DNA from: a virus | Taxonomy: Duplodnaviria; Heunggongvirae; Uroviricota; Caudoviricetes | IMG/VR virus record: IMGVR_UViG_2579778745_000003 | Location: 1 to 27,110 of that record | Reading direction: 5' to 3' (one strand) | DNA length: 27,110 bases | Part shown: positions 3 through 4,921 of the stretch, one piece after another | Numbering within the stretch: the first letter of the stretch is position 1 | Layout of the letters: each line of letters starts with the position of its first letter | Position numbers and translations under genes: made by a program | The notes under the pieces: model-generated | What the model was told of the DNA's origin: nothing | The model's input: only the letters and a program-made list of their open reading frames with translations | Database searches by the model: none

Positions 3-86
3 ATGATCTGGCAGCCTGAGTTCACAGATAAAACACTCTCCAGGAAACCCGGGGCGGTTCAGGCGTTGATCGCTGCATTGGTGTGA
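3..86 (+). CDS. 3' end of an ORF entering from upstream (...IWQPEFTDKTLSRKPGAVQALIAALV*), product unknown
   Basis: Frame 3 is open from the window edge to TGA 84-86. The stop overlaps GTG 83-85 (GTGA junction) of the next small ORF. No domain recognised. Confidence 0.25.
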   Translation: MIWQPEFTDKTLSRKPGAVQALIAALV

Positions 87-217
87 TTTGTTCTTCGGTA
101 AGTGATGAGTTATTCCCTAATGTGCCTGAATATGGTGGTATTGGATACCAGTTCCTGTATGAAGGCGATGAGCTTAAATGCTATGAACATGGTCTTCTTA
201 TCGAAAGCGTAGAATAA
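83..217 (+). CDS. small hypothetical protein, 44 aa (MICSSVSDELFPNVPEYGGIGYQFLYEGDELKCYEHGLLIESVE)
   Basis: Hand-translated ORF below the ORF-track size cutoff. GTG start overlaps the upstream stop (GTGA). Followed by a hairpin plus T-rich tract at 232-256. Non-repetitive, protein-like composition. No SD seen, so weak. Confidence 0.25.
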   Translation: MICSSVSDELFPNVPEYGGIGYQFLYEGDELKCYEHGLLIESVE

Positions 218-231
218 TACGGCTTCCTTCC

Positions 232-256
232 AACCGGCTTTATTGGCCGGTTTATT
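232..256 (+). terminator. putative rho-independent terminator separating the upstream ORFs from the origin
   Basis: aaccggc (232-238) / gccggtt (246-252) stem with a 7-nt loop, followed by ttatt. Confidence 0.35.
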
Positions 257-269
257 CAACTTATCCACA
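252..269 (+). promoter_or_regulatory. tandem DnaA boxes at the outer edge of the plasmid origin
   Basis: ttatccaca at 261-269 is the perfect DnaA-box consensus. ttattcaac at 252-260 is a 7/9 variant directly adjacent. A further 8/9 box in reverse orientation (tgttgataa) lies at 496-504. P1 oriR has the same layout of DnaA boxes flanking the origin core. Confidence 0.7.
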
Positions 270-274
270 GCATA

Positions 275-368
275 GATCCAATAAACAGATCCTAAAGAGA
301 ACCTAGGAAGATCCAAAGAAGATCCCGGATCGCTGTAAGCCGCGCCATTTCTGGCCTGAAATGGGATC
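275..368. promoter_or_regulatory. GATC (Dam-site) cluster of the plasmid origin
   Basis: Six GATC sites at 275, 288, 310, 321, 328 and 365. Four are in the repeated context AGATCC. This matches the methylation-dependent heptamer block of P1-type oriR. Confidence 0.7.
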
Positions 369-372
369 AACA

Positions 373-471
373 TTGACTATACGCGATTTTATGTTGACTG
401 TGCACGATTTATTGTTGACTGCACGCGATTTATTGTTGACTATACGCGACAGAAACATTGACTGTACGCGA
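373..471 (+). repeat. five direct RepA iterons (incC-equivalent, origin and repA promoter region)
   Basis: Core TTGACT(A/G)(T/C)(A/G)C(G/A)CGA at 373, 394, 415, 436 and 458. Spacing is 21, 21, 21 and 22 bp (two helical turns). They lie immediately upstream of repA. Confidence 0.85.
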
Positions 472-551: not shown

Positions 552-1436
552 ATGCCGGAAGAAAATAAAGGCTTCCTTAGCGTTGAAGAAGTTGCTGGAA
601 ATACAGGAGAAATCCACAGCCTGAAACCCAATAACAATAGCACTATACAACCCATCGCTTTGTTGCGCTTAGGTGTGTTTGTGCCAACCTTAAAATCTAC
701 CAATGTGGCACTACGTCGCGGATCGTCAGTTACTACAAACACAACGAACGCAACCGAAGAACTATCAAGCCTCAAAATTGTTGAGCAGGAAGGCTATGAG
801 GGAATTGAAATTCATGGTCCACGCCTGGATATGGATACTGATTTTAAGGTGTGGGTGGGCATAACCTCCGCGTTGTTTGACTACGCACCTGATGATGACG
901 GTATAATCACCCTGCCATTCTCCGAGTTTGCCGATCGATGCGGCTATCCACGTAAGCGCCTTTCAAAGGCGTTCCGTAAAAGTATTGATGATTCTCTGAC
1001 ACGCATTCAGCAGACAGTTGTCAAATTCCGCTTCCCGGCGGCAAAAGGTCATCTCAATAACATTAACGTCAACTTGTTGGCATATAGCAGCCTGAATACC
1101 GAGCTTGATGTTATCGAGATCCAGCCGCAGAAACAGCTATCTGAACTTTACTATGTTGACTATAAGCGAATCCTGAAGCTGAAGATGCTGGATAAGCTCG
1201 GGCGCAAAGAGACGGCCAAGGTACTGTATACATTCTTTGAGGCTCTACCCGCCAACCCGGCACCTGTCAGCATTGAGCGCCTTAGAGCAAGGCTTAATCT
1301 CAAATCATCCGTTAGCGTGCAAAATAGCGTTATCAGAAAAGCCATGAAAGATTTAGAAGCTATTGAATATCTTAAATTTTCAGAGATAAAAAACGGCAGG
1401 AAAATCGGCTTCCAGATCCATAAGCGCAATCCATAA
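552..1436 (+). CDS. repA: plasmid replication initiator RepA (P1 RepA family, divergent allele)
   Basis: PIALLRLGVFVP and GPRLDMDTDFKVWVGI match the P1 RepA motifs PVALMRLGVFVP and GPRLDMDTDFKTWIGV as I recall them. Flanked by iteron arrays on both sides. Start chosen at ATG 552 (GGAG at 540-543). The ORF is open from 495, and ATG 516 is an alternative. Confidence 0.85.
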   Translation: MPEENKGFLSVEEVAGNTGEIHSLKPNNNSTIQPIALLRLGVFVPTLKSTNVALRRGSSVTTNTTNATEELSSLKIVEQEGYEGIEIHGPRLDMDTDFKVWVGITSALFDYAPDDDGIITLPFSEFADRCGYPRKRLSKAFRKSIDDSLTRIQQTVVKFRFPAAKGHLNNINVNLLAYSSLNTELDVIEIQPQKQLSELYYVDYKRILKLKMLDKLGRKETAKVLYTFFEALPANPAPVSIERLRARLNLKSSVSVQNSVIRKAMKDLEAIEYLKFSEIKNGRKIGFQIHKRNP

Positions 1437-1438
1437 TA

Positions 1439-1693
1439 TTGACTATATGCGATAGCGAGAAGTTGACTATAGGCGACATTCATTGACGCTGGTGGATTTT
1501 TGCTGGAGTCAATATTCTGCAAGTCGCTATTGAGATGGCTTTTAGGGTCATTTCATCGCGTATAGTCAACGTTTCTCCCGACAATATCTTACATAGTCGA
1601 TCTTTGGTGGAGTTAAATCGACTACAGTCAACTTTTGACTGTAGTCACATCGCGCATAGTCAACTATTCACATTAACCTTCGCGCATAGTCAA
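1439..1693. repeat. incA: incA-like copy-control iteron array (about 9 iterons, both orientations)
   Basis: Same core as the origin iterons. Forward copies at 1439-1452, 1463-1476, 1483-1496 (degenerate) and 1635-1648. Reverse copies (TCGCGNATAGTCAA) at 1501-1512 (degenerate), 1556-1569, 1618-1631, 1650-1663 and 1680-1693. The position downstream of repA mirrors P1 incA. Confidence 0.8.
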
Positions 1694-1728
1694 CATTTGC
1701 GCGGTTCTCATCAAGCAGTGGTATTGAT

Positions 1729-2538
1729 ATGCAAGAAGAGAAACAACACTACCTCTACGTTCTGGTGCCAGAGAACGGAGATACTTTTAAAATCGGCATT
1801 TCATGTGGTCCATTGGCACGGTTTAAAGGGCTACAAGTGAGTCCCGATTTTGCGCTTTCACGGGTCTATCGTGGTACACGTTTGGCAATGGTTAATCTTG
1901 AGCGGGCTTTACACGCAACCTTTTTCCCCTGGAATGCGCCGTGGGAGAAAAGCGTCGGTGGCGGGCATACTGAATGGTTTACACGAGAGTGTCTTGATAA
2001 GGTTTTGGCTCATATCGAATATCTAAATGATATGTGGGGAGGGATTCTCGAGCGCATTAAGTCGAATGATTTACTTCAGCGTCCAGTAGATGCTGCTTGC
2101 TCTTTCGAAAAAGAGCTGGATGTTACTTCTATCGTGACTTTCAAAGATGACGCAGGAATGAGGGACGTGGCTTATGTCTCCATATCTGGCTATGAACCGG
2201 ACGCGATCCGCGCTCAATGTGAATTGCTGAAAGCAATGTTTATGCTTCGGACTAAATATCCCTGGGATACAGGGCGGGTGTGCTTCCCTATGGAAGAGTT
2301 AACCGCCACCATTGATTCCCAGCTTTACCACGATAATCCAGAGAAGTTTTTTAGCCTTTTAGCCGGTAATGGGCTTAACTGTGTGTCCGGGCTGGGGCGA
2401 AGTAGAATCCAACATGCCTCGCTCTTCGGTCCCTTCTTTTACGATCGACACGGGTACTTTGAGGCTGAACTTCCGGCGCTTACGCGTGCTATAGATACTA
2501 TCGATTTCGAACGATTATTCGCTGCTCTTAGCAAATAA
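1729..2538 (+). CDS. T5orf172 / GIY-YIG-superfamily domain protein with an uncharacterised about 170-aa C-terminal region
   Basis: The N-terminus HYLYVLVPENGDTFKIGISCGPLARFKGLQ...LERALHATF...GGGHTEWF follows the T5orf172 (MUG113-like) pattern YvYvl..g..KIG.t.....R...l...(28-30 aa)..lE..lH..f....(gap)..EWF. The C-terminal half is unrecognised. Own terminator follows. No gene occupies this position in P1 as I recall its map. Confidence 0.7.
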   Translation: MQEEKQHYLYVLVPENGDTFKIGISCGPLARFKGLQVSPDFALSRVYRGTRLAMVNLERALHATFFPWNAPWEKSVGGGHTEWFTRECLDKVLAHIEYLNDMWGGILERIKSNDLLQRPVDAACSFEKELDVTSIVTFKDDAGMRDVAYVSISGYEPDAIRAQCELLKAMFMLRTKYPWDTGRVCFPMEELTATIDSQLYHDNPEKFFSLLAGNGLNCVSGLGRSRIQHASLFGPFFYDRHGYFEAELPALTRAIDTIDFERLFAALSK

Positions 2539-2545
2539 CACTGAT

Positions 2546-2566
2546 GCCCCTGAACGGGGCTTTTTT
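2546..2566 (+). terminator. rho-independent terminator after the T5orf172 gene
   Basis: gcccc (2546-2550) tgaac ggggc (2556-2560) followed by tttttt (2561-2566). Confidence 0.8.
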
Positions 2567-2653
2567 GTGCCTTTCTTGTAACTCTCAATCGTGCAAAATG
2601 AACCAAACATGCAGAGAATGCTATGTACAAGCATCTACGCATACATTATTATT

Positions 2654-2706: not shown

Positions 2707-3903
2707 ATGAGTGATTCCAGCCAGCTTCACAAGGTTGCTCAAAGAGCAAACAGAATGCTCAATGTTCTGACTGAACAAGTACAGTTGCAAAAGGATGAGC
2801 TACACGCGAACGAGTTTTACCAGGTCTATGCGAAAGCGGCACTGGCAAAATTGCCTCTACTGACTCGAGCGAACGTTGACTATGCCGTAAGTGAAATGGA
2901 AGAAAAGGGTTATGTTTTCGATAAACGCCCTGCTGGCTCTTCAATGAAATATGCGATGTCAATTCAGAACATCATTGACATATATGAACATCGCGGAGTG
3001 CCAAAATACCGGGATCGCTACAGCGAAGCGTATGTGATTTTCATCTCCAATCTTAAAGGCGGTGTGTCAAAAACTGTATCGACGGTTTCTCTGGCGCATG
3101 CAATGCGTGCCCACCCTCATCTTCTGATGGAAGATTTAAGGATTCTGGTTATTGACCTTGATCCGCAATCTTCAGCAACGATGTTTTTAAGCCATAAACA
3201 CTCTATTGGTATCGTAAACGCAACATCTGCACAGGCTATGTTGCAGAATGTAAGCCGTGAAGAGCTGTTAGAGGAGTTTATTGTTCCTTCTGTTGTACCT
3301 GGGGTTGACGTTATGCCTGCGTCGATTGACGATGCCTTTATTGCATCCGATTGGAGAGAGCTGTGCAATGAGCATCTACCGGGTCAGAACATCCATGCTG
3401 TCCTGAAAGAAAATGTGATTGATAAGCTGAAGAGCGATTATGACTTTATCCTCGTTGATAGTGGTCCTCACCTTGACGCCTTCCTGAAAAATGCTTTGGC
3501 CTCGGCCAATATACTGTTTACACCTCTGCCGCCAGCAACTGTCGATTTCCACTCATCGCTTAAATACGTTGCCCGCCTTCCTGAGTTGGTAAAACTCATT
3601 TCGGATGAAGGCTGCGAGTGCCAGCTTGCGACTAACATTGGTTTTATGTCCAAGTTGAGTAACAAGGCAGATCATAAGTATTGCCATAGCCTGGCTAAAG
3701 AAGTGTTCGGTGGGGATATGCTTGATGTCGTCCTCCCTCGCCTTGACGGTTTTGAACGCTGCGGCGAGTCTTTTGACACTGTTATTTCAGCTAACCCGGC
3801 AACGTATGTTGGTAGTGCTGATGCATTGAAGAACGCGCGAATTGCCGCGGAAGATTTTGCTAAAGCAGTTTTTGACCGTATTGAATTTATCAGATCTAAC
3901 TGA
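2707..3903 (+). CDS. parA: partition ATPase ParA (type Ia, Walker-type KGGVSKT)
   Basis: 398 aa. The sequence reads as P1 ParA (MSDSSQLHKVAQRANRMLNVLTEQ..., deviant Walker A NLKGGVSKT). An N-terminal HTH region is present. Followed by parB and parS. Confidence 0.95.
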   Translation: MSDSSQLHKVAQRANRMLNVLTEQVQLQKDELHANEFYQVYAKAALAKLPLLTRANVDYAVSEMEEKGYVFDKRPAGSSMKYAMSIQNIIDIYEHRGVPKYRDRYSEAYVIFISNLKGGVSKTVSTVSLAHAMRAHPHLLMEDLRILVIDLDPQSSATMFLSHKHSIGIVNATSAQAMLQNVSREELLEEFIVPSVVPGVDVMPASIDDAFIASDWRELCNEHLPGQNIHAVLKENVIDKLKSDYDFILVDSGPHLDAFLKNALASANILFTPLPPATVDFHSSLKYVARLPELVKLISDEGCECQLATNIGFMSKLSNKADHKYCHSLAKEVFGGDMLDVVLPRLDGFERCGESFDTVISANPATYVGSADALKNARIAAEDFAKAVFDRIEFIRSN

Positions 3904-3919
3904 GGAGTAAGAAACCCCC

Positions 3920-4921
3920 ATGTCAAAGAAAAACAGACCAACAATTGGGCGAACCCTTAATCCTTCAATATTAAGCGGATTTGATAGTTCTTCAGCCTCT
4001 GGCGATCGAGTCGAGCAGGTATTCAAGTTATCAACTGGTCGCCAGGCCACATTTATTGAAGAGGTAATACCTCCGAACCAGGTAGAAAGCGATACCTTTG
4101 TTGATCAGCATAACAACGGGCGTGACCAGGCATCTCTTACGCCAAAATCATTAAAAAGTATCCGAAGCACTATTAAGCATCAGCAATTTTACCCTGCAAT
4201 AGGTGTTAGACGGGCTACAGGGAAAATTGAAATTTTGGATGGTTCCCGGCGTCGAGCTTCTGCCATCTTAGAGAACGTAGGGTTGCGGGTTTTAGTCACG
4301 GACCAGGAGATCAGCGTTCAGGAAGCGCAAAATTTAGCGAAAGACGTTCAGACAGCATTGCAGCACAGCATTCGAGAAATAGGTCTGCGTTTGATGCGAA
4401 TGAAAAATGATGGGATGAGTCAGAAGGATATTGCAGCCAAAGAAGGGCTGTCTCAGGCGAAGGTCACGCGTGCTCTCCAGGCAGCGAGTGCTCCGGAAGA
4501 ATTAGTCGCCCTTTTCCCTGTTCAGTCGGAATTAACCTTTTCGGACTACAAAACGCTTTGTGCTGTTGGCGACGAAATGGGGAACAAGAATTTAGAGTTT
4601 GATCAGCTTATTCAAAACATATCCCCGGAAATAAACGACATCTTATCCATTGAAGAAATGGCCGAAGATGAAGTTAAAAATAAAATCCTGCGCTTGATAA
4701 CAAAGGAAGCCTCACTACTCACGGATAAAGGTTCTAAAGATAAGTCCGTAGTTACTGAATTATGGAAATTTGAGGACAAGGATCGCTTTGCAAGGAAGCG
4801 CGTGAAAGGCCGTGCATTTTCTTATGAGTTTAATCGACTTTCAAAAGAGCTACAGGAAGAACTCGACAGGATGATTGGGCATATCCTTAGAAAGAGCCTC
4901 GATAAAAAGCCGAAGCCTTAA
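3920..4921 (+). CDS. parB: partition centromere-binding protein ParB
   Basis: 333 aa. The sequence reads as P1 ParB (MSKKNRPTIGRTLNPSIL..., ParB box GSRRRAS, HTH MSQKDIAAKEGLSQAKVTRAL). SD gaggag lies upstream. Confidence 0.95.
   Translation: MSKKNRPTIGRTLNPSILSGFDSSSASGDRVEQVFKLSTGRQATFIEEVIPPNQVESDTFVDQHNNGRDQASLTPKSLKSIRSTIKHQQFYPAIGVRRATGKIEILDGSRRRASAILENVGLRVLVTDQEISVQEAQNLAKDVQTALQHSIREIGLRLMRMKNDGMSQKDIAAKEGLSQAKVTRALQAASAPEELVALFPVQSELTFSDYKTLCAVGDEMGNKNLEFDQLIQNISPEINDILSIEEMAEDEVKNKILRLITKEASLLTDKGSKDKSVVTELWKFEDKDRFARKRVKGRAFSYEFNRLSKELQEELDRMIGHILRKSLDKKPKP

What the first reader, a model, noticed from the sequence alone, without database searches (positions are those of the whole stretch)
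1729..2538. T5orf172/GIY-YIG-like gene inserted between the copy-control iterons and the par operator
In P1 as I recall it, incA is followed directly by the par promoter. Here a 269-aa ORF with its own strong terminator (2546-2566) occupies that junction, starting about 35 bp after the last iteron.

Its N-terminal about 100 aa follow the T5orf172 pattern (YLYVL..G..KIG...R...L....LE..LH..F....EWF). This is a GIY-YIG-related module found in phage and mobile-element accessory proteins. The C-terminal about 170 aa are unrecognisable to me.

There is no obvious SD or independent promoter. It may be read through from repA across RepA-bound iterons, which would tie its expression to the plasmid-prophage state. 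Candidate roles are nuclease-type defence or anti-defence, or a replicon-linked addiction or exclusion function.
Basis: partly seen in the sequence, partly recalled or inferred. Interest (0 to 1): 0.7.

Follow-up and report, generated by a model that had tools for sequence, protein, structure and literature searches.

The report
Nuclease gene riding the plasmid-replicon cassette
A real, already-annotated but uncharacterised T5orf172 (GIY-YIG-type) nuclease gene forms the last gene of the swappable plasmid-replication cassette of P1-like phage-plasmids, and it probably acts as a selfish or competitive DNA cutter rather than in replication.

Summary
The ORF at 1729-2538 is real. It has a T5orf172 N-terminal domain above Pfam's cut-off with every signature residue intact. 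It starts about 30 bp after the last inverted iteron and ends at a hairpin plus T6 terminator. The window is a p0111-type P1-like phage-plasmid.

Against P1, the whole block 356-2604 (iterons, repA, iterons, this gene, terminator) is replaced. P1 identity resumes 16 bp before the par promoter.

The two-domain family has only four 50%-identity clusters in 1.84 billion representative proteins. All four sit at this junction in P1-like elements, next to three different RepA types.

The gene is dispensable. P1 lacks it, a related replicon elsewhere lacks it, and pseudogenes occur. It evolves much faster than repA, parA and parB.

The C-terminal domain is an acidic sequence orphan. Its predicted fold is closest to the WH1 domain of iteron-binding Rep initiators, with modest scores.

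Best reading: a homing-endonuclease-like, possibly Odn-like, conflict nuclease linked to the replicon cassette. No activity was tested. RefSeq already names it a GIY-YIG nuclease, and it occurs in 412 of 5426 complete E. coli genomes.

The parts
261..331 (+). Origin left part: perfect DnaA box TTATCCACA (261-269) and five GATC sites (275-331). This stretch is still homologous to P1 oriR.
   Evidence: Motif positions. Window 61-355 is 87% identical to P1. P1 annotation of the DnaA box and Dam sites.
371..471 (+). Five direct iterons (TTGACTATACGCGA type, 21-22 bp spacing), the incC/origin equivalent. The left edge of the swapped cassette is at about 356.
   Evidence: Repeat family D1. P1 homology ends at 355.
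552..1436 (+). repA, a Rep3-family initiator of the p0111 type. It is 43% identical to P1 RepA.
   Evidence: Pfam Rep3_N/Rep3_C. Identity table. RefSeq annotates an 885-nt gene. The ATG at 552 was read.
1437..1698 (.). The incA-equivalent copy-control array. It holds two direct iterons (1437, 1461), a conserved CATTGACGCTGGTGGATTTT box, and four inverted iterons (1556, 1618, 1650, 1680).
   Evidence: Repeat families D1 and D4. The same layout occurs in L001 and L005.
1729..2028 (+). N-terminal T5orf172 / GIY-YIG-type nuclease domain (aa 1-100) of the 269-aa protein. The putative catalytic residues R31 and E82 are retained.
2029..2538 (+). C-terminal orphan domain (aa 101-269, plus stop codon). 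It is acidic (pI about 5). The predicted winged helix is closest to Rep-initiator WH1 domains.
2546..2566 (+). Intrinsic-terminator-like hairpin (5 G-C pairs) plus T6, closing the gene.
   Evidence: A homologous terminator follows the L008 gene.
2605..2652 (+). Right edge of the swapped cassette. P1 identity (99.4%) resumes at 2605, 16 bp upstream of the Ppar -35. Ppar itself is 2624-2652.
2707..4921 (+). parA (2707-3903) and parB (3920-4921). They are P1-type, 99.7% and 100% identical to P1 ParA and ParB.

Best explanation
The gene encodes a site-directed DNA endonuclease of the T5orf172 class of homing-endonuclease-like genes. It is carried as the terminal gene of the exchangeable plasmid-replicon cassette (iterons, repA, iterons, nuclease, terminator) of P1-like phage-plasmids.

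**Proposed mechanism (inferred, not shown)**
- The gene is expressed at a low level in the plasmid-prophage state. Transcription would enter from repA or the iteron region, and translation would start from a weak SD.
- The N-terminal domain cuts DNA.
- The fast-evolving C-terminal Rep-WH1-like domain supplies target choice. It would do this either by binding DNA or by binding an initiator on DNA.
- The target is a co-resident or incoming related element that carries a different allele of the rep-par junction or replicon.
- The cut either destroys that rival replicon, or is repaired from the nuclease-bearing copy. Repair would drag the linked replicon cassette along (homing or marker exclusion).

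**What is shown**
- The domain identity and the intact signature residues.
- The fixed position at the cassette edge.
- Presence/absence polymorphism at that position.
- Dispensability for replication.
- Fast divergence relative to neighbouring genes.
For: 1. The nuclease domain is intact. Pfam is above cut-off. All nine near-invariant T5orf172 positions are kept, including the Arg and Glu that align with the GIY-YIG catalytic residues. The fold matches SLX1 GIY-YIG nucleases and phage T5orf172 proteins including ICP1 ORF88/Odn.

2. The whole family sits at one locus. There are four 50%-identity clusters in 1.84e9 representatives. Each lies between the last incA-type iteron and Ppar of a P1-like element, starting 23-33 bp after the iteron.

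3. The gene sits at a boundary of genetic exchange.
- WIN versus P1 is identical from 2605 onward, about 40 bp after the terminator.
- L001 versus L007 have flanks 96-98.6% identical. Their cassettes are unrelated, and each carries its own nuclease allele at 29% identity.

4. Presence/absence at the same site within one replicon type. L007 (RepA 83% identical to P1 RepA) has the gene where P1 has a 210-bp spacer.

5. The gene's history is partly independent of repA. The L007 and L008 N-domains are 63% identical in protein and 76% in DNA over 231 bp, while their RepAs are 43% identical with no DNA match.

6. The gene is not needed for replication. L004 and L005 lack it. A frameshift allele and a nonsense allele persist.

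7. The gene diverges fast. dN for WIN-L001 is 0.52 (C-domain 0.70), against 0.13 for repA and 0.07 for parA. Within-lineage dN/dS is about 0.4, against 0-0.06 for the neighbours.

8. There is precedent. T5orf172 homing-endonuclease genes occupy recombination boundaries in phages (PMC10448857). T5orf172 fused to a Rep-derived domain gives the origin-directed nuclease Odn (PMC8263062).
Against: - No cleavage activity or target is known, and none can be inferred from sequence.
- The gene is essentially fixed in the p0111 lineage. About 401 PLSDB records carry the protein and about 396 carry the RepA at 90% identity or more. It is almost absent from IncY elements in PLSDB. This is not the patchy within-lineage pattern of an actively homing gene.
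- The cassette boundaries could arise from ordinary homologous recombination in conserved flanks, without any nuclease.
- The protein (pI 5.5) and especially its C-domain (pI about 5) are acidic. That is unusual for a sequence-specific DNA-binding module.
- WIN and L001 share the same iterons, yet their C-domains are only 33% identical. Own-iteron recognition is therefore unlikely.
- The within-lineage dN/dS estimate is inflated, because the variants were picked for being the most diverged in this protein.
Confidence: 0.45

Rival explanations
1. A pure Odn-like origin-directed nuclease. The Rep-WH1-like C-domain mimics, or docks onto, a replication initiator. It brings the T5orf172 nuclease to the iterons of a rival replicon, such as IncY P1 or other Rep3 plasmids or satellites. 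The rival is destroyed and there is no homing.
For: - The architecture parallels Odn, which fuses T5orf172 to a RepA-derived domain and cuts at iterons (PMC8263062, PMC10448857).
- The gene is linked to the replicon and the specificity domain evolves fast.
- p0111 and IncY P1-like elements share identical par systems, so they must compete when co-resident.
Against: - The C-domain has no sequence similarity to any RepA tested. hhalign probability is 0.2. There is no Pfam Rep hit and no tblastn hit in 72,556 plasmids at E up to 10.
- The domain is acidic, whereas the RepAs have pI 9.3-9.5.
- The fold scores are modest.
Confidence: 0.2
2. A domesticated, non-cutting T5orf172 protein, like CapR. 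It would act as a DNA-binding or RepA-binding regulator of the replicon or of the adjacent par promoter.
For: - T5orf172 proteins can be domesticated as repressors (CapR, PMC8096241).
- 'CapR homology' proteins appear among the structural neighbours.
- The gene lies between two autoregulated control regions, and may be co-transcribed with repA because no promoter or terminator lies between them.
- A WH1-like domain could heterodimerise with RepA.
Against: - All the signature residues are retained, including the putative catalytic Arg and Glu.
- The gene is dispensable. Gene-less replicons and pseudogene alleles exist.
- A core regulator would not be expected to diverge 4-10 times faster than repA and parA.
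Confidence: 0.15
3. An anti-phage (or anti-plasmid) defence nuclease. The phage-plasmid carries it for the benefit of its host, and it has no connection with the replicon.
For: - Phage-plasmids often carry defence genes.
- Fast evolution fits an arms race.
Against: - There is no PADLOC match.
- It is a single gene with no partner sensor or modification gene.
- Its strict confinement to one junction of one element family, and its co-transfer with the replicon cassette, are not explained.
Confidence: 0.12
4. A decaying selfish remnant with no current function.
For: - Occasional frameshift and nonsense alleles occur.
- dN/dS is raised relative to neighbouring genes.
Against: - The gene is intact at full length in the great majority of about 400 plasmids, and in 403 of 412 E. 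coli genome hits.
- dN/dS is below 1.
- The signature residues are invariant across alleles only 25-44% identical.
Confidence: 0.08

Closest known systems
Free-standing T5orf172 homing-endonuclease genes of phages (ICP1 and others; Barth, Dunham & Seed 2023, PMC10448857)
   Same: - It has the same nuclease domain.
- It is a single free-standing gene in an intergenic slot next to essential genes.
- It lies exactly at a boundary of genetic exchange.
- It is present or absent between otherwise collinear genomes.
- Its non-nuclease domain is variable.
   Different: [quoted passage not shown]
- Its C-domain is an acidic orphan with a Rep-WH1-like fold.
- It resides in the plasmid-maintenance region of a phage-plasmid and is linked to a replicon cassette.
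- It is near-fixed in one lineage.
- No cleavage or homing has been shown.
Odn (ICP1 Gp88), the origin-directed nuclease (Barth et al. 2021, PMC8263062)
   Same: - It combines a T5orf172 nuclease with a domain that resembles a replication initiator's origin-binding domain.
- It is implicated in conflict between replicons.
- ICP1 ORF88 is a structural neighbour.
   Different: - Odn's DNA-binding domain is a RepA_N domain 42% identical to its target's RepA, and it is N-terminal. Here the resemblance is fold-level only, to the Rep3/RepE WH1 domain, and it is C-terminal, with no sequence similarity to any RepA tested.
- Odn is in a lytic phage and aimed at a satellite. This gene is inside a plasmid replicon.
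CapR (PLE), a domesticated T5orf172 protein acting as a repressor (Netter et al. 2021, PMC8096241)
   Same: It is a T5orf172-related protein in a mobile element, and it may be used for something other than homing.
   Different: Here all the signature and putative catalytic residues are kept. There is no CapR-type DNA-binding domain by sequence.
SLX1 / GIY-YIG structure-specific nucleases
   Different: They are eukaryotic, need the SLX4 partner, and have a RING/PHD C-domain. There is no sequence-level relationship beyond the superfamily.

Membership tests
T5orf172 domain family (Pfam PF10544) | Match to the family HMM above the curated gathering score | tested here: met
   26.9 bits against a cut-off of 20, E=6.9e-6, aa 8-85.
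T5orf172 domain family (Pfam PF10544) | Signature residues (Y..KIG..R..E..LH..G.TEWF) | tested here: met
   Y10, K21, G23, R31, E58, H62, G79, E82 and F84 are 92-100% conserved in 145 homologues. All are consensus here and invariant in the four family clusters.
GIY-YIG nuclease superfamily | GIY-YIG alpha/beta fold | tested here: met
GIY-YIG nuclease superfamily | Catalytic Arg and Glu present; metal-dependent DNA cleavage | tested here: inconclusive
   R31 and E82 are conserved and align with the family Arg and Glu. Enzymatic activity cannot be tested with these tools.
Free-standing homing endonuclease gene | Presence/absence polymorphism at one locus between collinear genomes | tested here: met
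   L007 has the gene where P1 has a spacer, within the same replicon type. WIN versus P1.
Free-standing homing endonuclease gene | Evolutionary history independent of flanking genes | tested here: inconclusive
   N-domain relationships (L007-L008 63%) do not track RepA (43%). The gene always travels with a rep cassette. There are only four alleles.
Free-standing homing endonuclease gene | Cleaves the gene-less allele and is copied into it | not testable with these tools
   This needs cleavage assays and mixed-infection or co-residence crosses.
Odn-type origin-directed nuclease | T5orf172 fused to a replication-initiator-derived DNA-binding domain | tested here: inconclusive
Odn-type origin-directed nuclease | Sequence similarity of that domain to the RepA of a target element | tested here: not met
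   hhalign against six RepAs gives probability 0.2. No Pfam hit. No tblastn hit in plasmids at E up to 10.
Known anti-phage defence systems (PADLOC-DB 2.0) | Match to a defence-system protein model | tested here: not met
   0 families at E up to 1.
Essential component of the iteron replicon (rep/copy control) | Present wherever the replicon type occurs; intact in all functional plasmids | tested here: not met
   It is absent next to an 85%-identical RepA with the same iteron layout in L004 and L005. It is absent from P1. Frameshift and nonsense alleles occur in complete plasmids.

The most novel reading that the evidence does not exclude
The protein is a replicon-borne 'initiator-mimic' nuclease. 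Its WH1-like domain docks on iterons, or on RepA bound to iterons, of a rival replicon, and the T5orf172 domain cuts there. P1-like phage-plasmids that share the same partition system would then fight by nuclease-mediated incompatibility. The winning replicon cassette would be copied into the loser, which amounts to a gene drive for a plasmid replicon.
Probability: 0.2. Interest if true: 0.8.

Novelty: new variant of a known kind. Interest (0 to 1): 0.55.

Why it matters
P1-like phage-plasmids are common carriers of resistance genes, and they come in two main replicon types, IncY and p0111. The p0111 cassette always brings this nuclease gene. In complete E. coli genomes it is about 2.7 times more frequent than the gene-less P1 junction (412 versus 153 of 5426).

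If the nuclease biases competition or recombination between co-resident elements, it would explain how replicon modules are exchanged at such sharp boundaries. It would also be a plasmid-side counterpart of the phage Odn and homing-endonuclease systems. In addition, it offers a small, testable two-domain protein with a new target-selection domain.

If it does nothing of the kind, it is one more uncharacterised accessory nuclease.

Tried and rejected
- **NCBIfam and PADLOC scans:** no hits.
- **Word-indexed homologue searches:** three searches found only the family itself.
- **First AF2 run with 3 sequences:** too poor to use, pLDDT 50.
- **AFDB Foldseek library:** unavailable.
- **C-domain as a diverged copy of the neighbouring RepA:** rejected by hhalign, probability 0.2.
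- **C-domain shared with other roughly 290-aa T5orf172 proteins:** rejected. An HMM of the C-domain hits none of the 150 best N-domain relatives.
- **P1's 190-bp incA-Ppar spacer as a decayed remnant of the gene:** rejected. blastx gives only noise.
- **P1 late-promoter (-22 box) control of the gene:** no box within 1400-2700.
- **Positive selection:** not demonstrable. dS is saturated between alleles. The within-lineage sample is biased and gives dN/dS below 1.
- **Apparent N-terminally truncated clusters P0002 and P0003:** P0003 was checked and its contig begins inside the gene. P0002 carries a source label of 'partial' and was not looked up.
- **Co-occurrence or exclusion of p0111 and IncY elements within genomes:** could not be computed, because hit lists are capped.

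Full report
**1. What is there**

The window is part of a P1-like phage-plasmid. From 2605 onward it is 99.4% identical to P1 across Ppar, parA, parB, parS and gene 23. ORF 1729-2538 encodes 269 aa.

The N-terminal 100 aa are a T5orf172 domain:
- Pfam gives 26.9 bits against a cut-off of 20.
- PHROG 'endonuclease' matches aa 4-100 at 7e-9.
- In an alignment of 145 diverse T5orf172 domains, nine positions are 92-100% conserved. The protein has the consensus residue at each one: Y10, K21, G23, R31, E58, H62, G79, E82 and F84.

The surrounding layout is as follows:
- A hairpin plus T6 follows the stop codon at 2546-2566.
- Upstream lies a P1-style iteron replicon. It has a DnaA box and five GATC sites, five direct iterons, and repA. 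After repA come two direct and four inverted iterons.
- The ATG is about 30 bp after the last iteron.
- No promoter-like or terminator-like site lies between repA and the gene.

One detail needs correcting: P1 has about 190 bp of spacer between incA and Ppar, so they do not directly abut.

**2. Relation to P1 and to the replicon**

P1 aligns with window 61-355 at 87% and again from 2605 at 99.4%. The 2.25 kb between has no P1 counterpart. That block holds the iterons, repA, more iterons, the nuclease gene and the terminator. RepA is 43% identical to P1 RepA. This is the known p0111 replicon type of P1-like elements. [quoted passage not shown]

The arrangement is very common:
- 388 PLSDB plasmids and 12 phage records carry it at 98.6% identity or more.
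- About 401 PLSDB records encode the protein, and about 396 encode this RepA at 90% identity or more.
- The gene is in 412 of 5426 complete E. coli genomes. The P1-type gene-less junction is in 153.
- RefSeq already labels it 'GIY-YIG nuclease family protein'.

**3. The family is tiny and locus-bound**

An exhaustive HMMER search of 1.84 billion representative proteins found many N-domain relatives. Only four clusters have the C-terminal domain: the window type, P0004, P0010 and P0012.

All four sit between the last incA-type iteron and Ppar of a P1-like element, starting 23-33 bp after the iteron. They accompany three different RepA types:

| Locus | RepA type |
|---|---|
| Window, L001 | p0111 type |
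| L007 | P1/IncY type (83% identical to P1 RepA) |
| L008 | a third type |

The sibling pair L001 and L007 is the most informative. Their flanks are 96-98.6% identical up to the first iteron, and again from about 60 bp upstream of Ppar. ParA is 99.7% identical. Between these points lie unrelated cassettes, each ending in its own nuclease allele at 29% identity.

L007 versus P1 shows a clean gene-for-spacer difference after the last incA iteron. The gene is therefore the terminal gene of an exchangeable replicon cassette, and it is polymorphic for presence.

**4. Dispensable and fast-evolving**

Several lines show the gene is not needed for the replicon:
- A RepA 85% identical, with the same 5+2+4 iteron layout, functions in a different 94-kb element without this gene and without parAB next to it. 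These are L004 and L005.
- P1 lacks the gene.
- Complete plasmids carry a frameshifted allele (L009) or a nonsense allele (L012, codon 36).

The gene also diverges faster than its neighbours. Between the window and L001, dN values are as follows:

| Gene or domain | dN, window vs L001 |
|---|---|
| Nuclease gene, whole | 0.52 |
| N-domain | 0.29 |
| C-domain | 0.70 |
| repA | 0.13 |
| parA | 0.07 |
| parB | 0.26 |

dS is saturated for this pair. Within the lineage, dN/dS is about 0.4, against 0-0.06 for the neighbouring genes. That sample was chosen for divergence in this protein, so the estimate is inflated.

It is not met, so it does not refute the reading.

**5. The C-terminal domain**

This domain has no Pfam, PDB-sequence or plasmid tblastn similarity. 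It also shows no profile similarity to the neighbouring RepAs.

A four-sequence alignment gave an AF2 model with mean pLDDT 72, and about 80 over the C-domain core. The element order H157-173, E183-187, H188-194, H204-211, E215-220, E227-230 is a winged helix flanked by extra strands.

The structural searches gave these results:
- Foldseek independently ranks the same proteins first, with 6h24 at probability 0.91 and E 0.02, followed by RctB and many RepE54 entries.

The scores are modest, and the tools do not print the aligned residues. I therefore treat 'Rep-WH1-like fold' as a lead, not a fact. The domain is acidic (pI about 5) in all four alleles, whereas the RepAs have pI 9.3-9.5. This argues against a classical basic DNA-binding module. 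It leaves open protein docking, since WH1 is also the Rep dimerisation domain.

**6. Mechanism**

Putting this together, the intact nuclease signature, the free-standing gene with its own terminator, and the fixed position at a recombination boundary all point the same way. So do the presence/absence polymorphism, the dispensability, and the rapidly changing second domain. Together they fit the T5orf172 homing-endonuclease-like genes described in phages, which 'occupy boundaries of genetic exchange' (PMC10448857).

The Rep-like fold and the replicon linkage recall Odn. Odn is a T5orf172 nuclease fused to a RepA-derived domain, and it cuts a rival's origin at its iterons (PMC8263062). ICP1 ORF88 is itself among the structural neighbours.

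I therefore commit to a conflict nuclease that acts on related elements carrying another rep-par allele. The outcome would be either gene conversion that drags the cassette along, or destruction of the rival. My confidence is 0.45. The pure Odn-like variant gets 0.2. The other rivals are a domesticated regulator (0.15), a host-benefit defence nuclease (0.12) and a decaying remnant (0.08).

The evidence against the main reading:
- No activity or target is known.
- The gene is fixed in one lineage and nearly absent from the other.
- Ordinary recombination could produce the same boundaries.
- The protein is acidic.
- The window and L001 share the same iterons but have very different C-domains.

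**7. Expression**

No sigma-70-like site, no P1 late-promoter -22 box and no terminator precede the gene. All four alleles have weak SD-like sequences.

**8. Novelty**

The gene is already annotated and widespread, and its nuclease domain belongs to a known kind. Four things appear to be new:
- The family is restricted to one junction of P1-like phage-plasmids.
- It belongs to the swappable replicon cassette.
- It evolves fast.
- Its C-domain is an orphan with a Rep-WH1-like fold.

I found no paper that discusses its function. I rate it a new variant of a known kind, of moderate interest.

Noticed in passing
L004 (CP042620.1) and L005 (NZ_CP085065.1), locus coordinates about 3500-4910: A p0111-like replicon sits in a different roughly 94-kb phage-plasmid-like element typed rep_cluster_2164. 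RepA is 85% identical, with the same DnaA box, GATC cluster and 5+2+4 iteron layout. It is flanked by tail and transglycosylase genes, with no parAB or nuclease gene next to it. The bare replicon cassette is therefore shared between distinct element families.
   Followed up: partly
window 1154-1169 (inside repA); also L001 about 7603 and L005 about 4397: A near-perfect iteron copy (TGTTGACTATAAGCGA) lies inside the repA coding sequence. It is conserved at the DNA level in the diverged relatives. It may be a functional internal RepA site.
   Followed up: no
window 1479-1500; L001 7914-7935; L005 4720-4740: A conserved box, CATTGACGCTGG(T/C)GGATTT, lies between the two direct and the four inverted downstream iterons. 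It looks like a half-iteron plus a DnaA-box-like GGATTT motif. Its function is unknown.
   Followed up: no
L001 8001-8123 (the called gene P0004) and window ORF 1535-1840: Gene callers extend ORFs through the inverted iterons, giving spurious N-terminal extensions that contain repeated 'AYSQH' or 'AHSQ' peptides. The true start of P0004 is the ATG at L001:8124.
   Followed up: yes
PLSDB typing of L003 and L009-L014: MOB-suite, as shown in PLSDB, types these p0111 P1-like replicons as 'IncHI1B'. This looks like a mis-assignment for Rep3/RepFIB-like initiators.
   Followed up: no
window 2546-2604 versus L008 6003-6060: The terminator and about 50 bp downstream of the nuclease gene are recognisably homologous between the window type and L008. 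The genes themselves are only 29% identical, and the par operons differ (ParA 57%). A conserved 3' flank travels with the gene.
   Followed up: no
P0005 (E. coli plasmid protein, 197 aa) and H154 (NZ_AP027538.1): Rare rearranged copies exist. One is a chimeric ORF that fuses an unrelated 78-aa N-terminus to aa 105-223 of the protein. The other is a 231-kb plasmid that retains only the last third of the gene.
   Followed up: no
E. coli complete genomes: Seven of the 421 places that carry the gene are on chromosomes. Some genomes carry two copies. Integrated or cointegrated P1-like elements were not examined.
   Followed up: no
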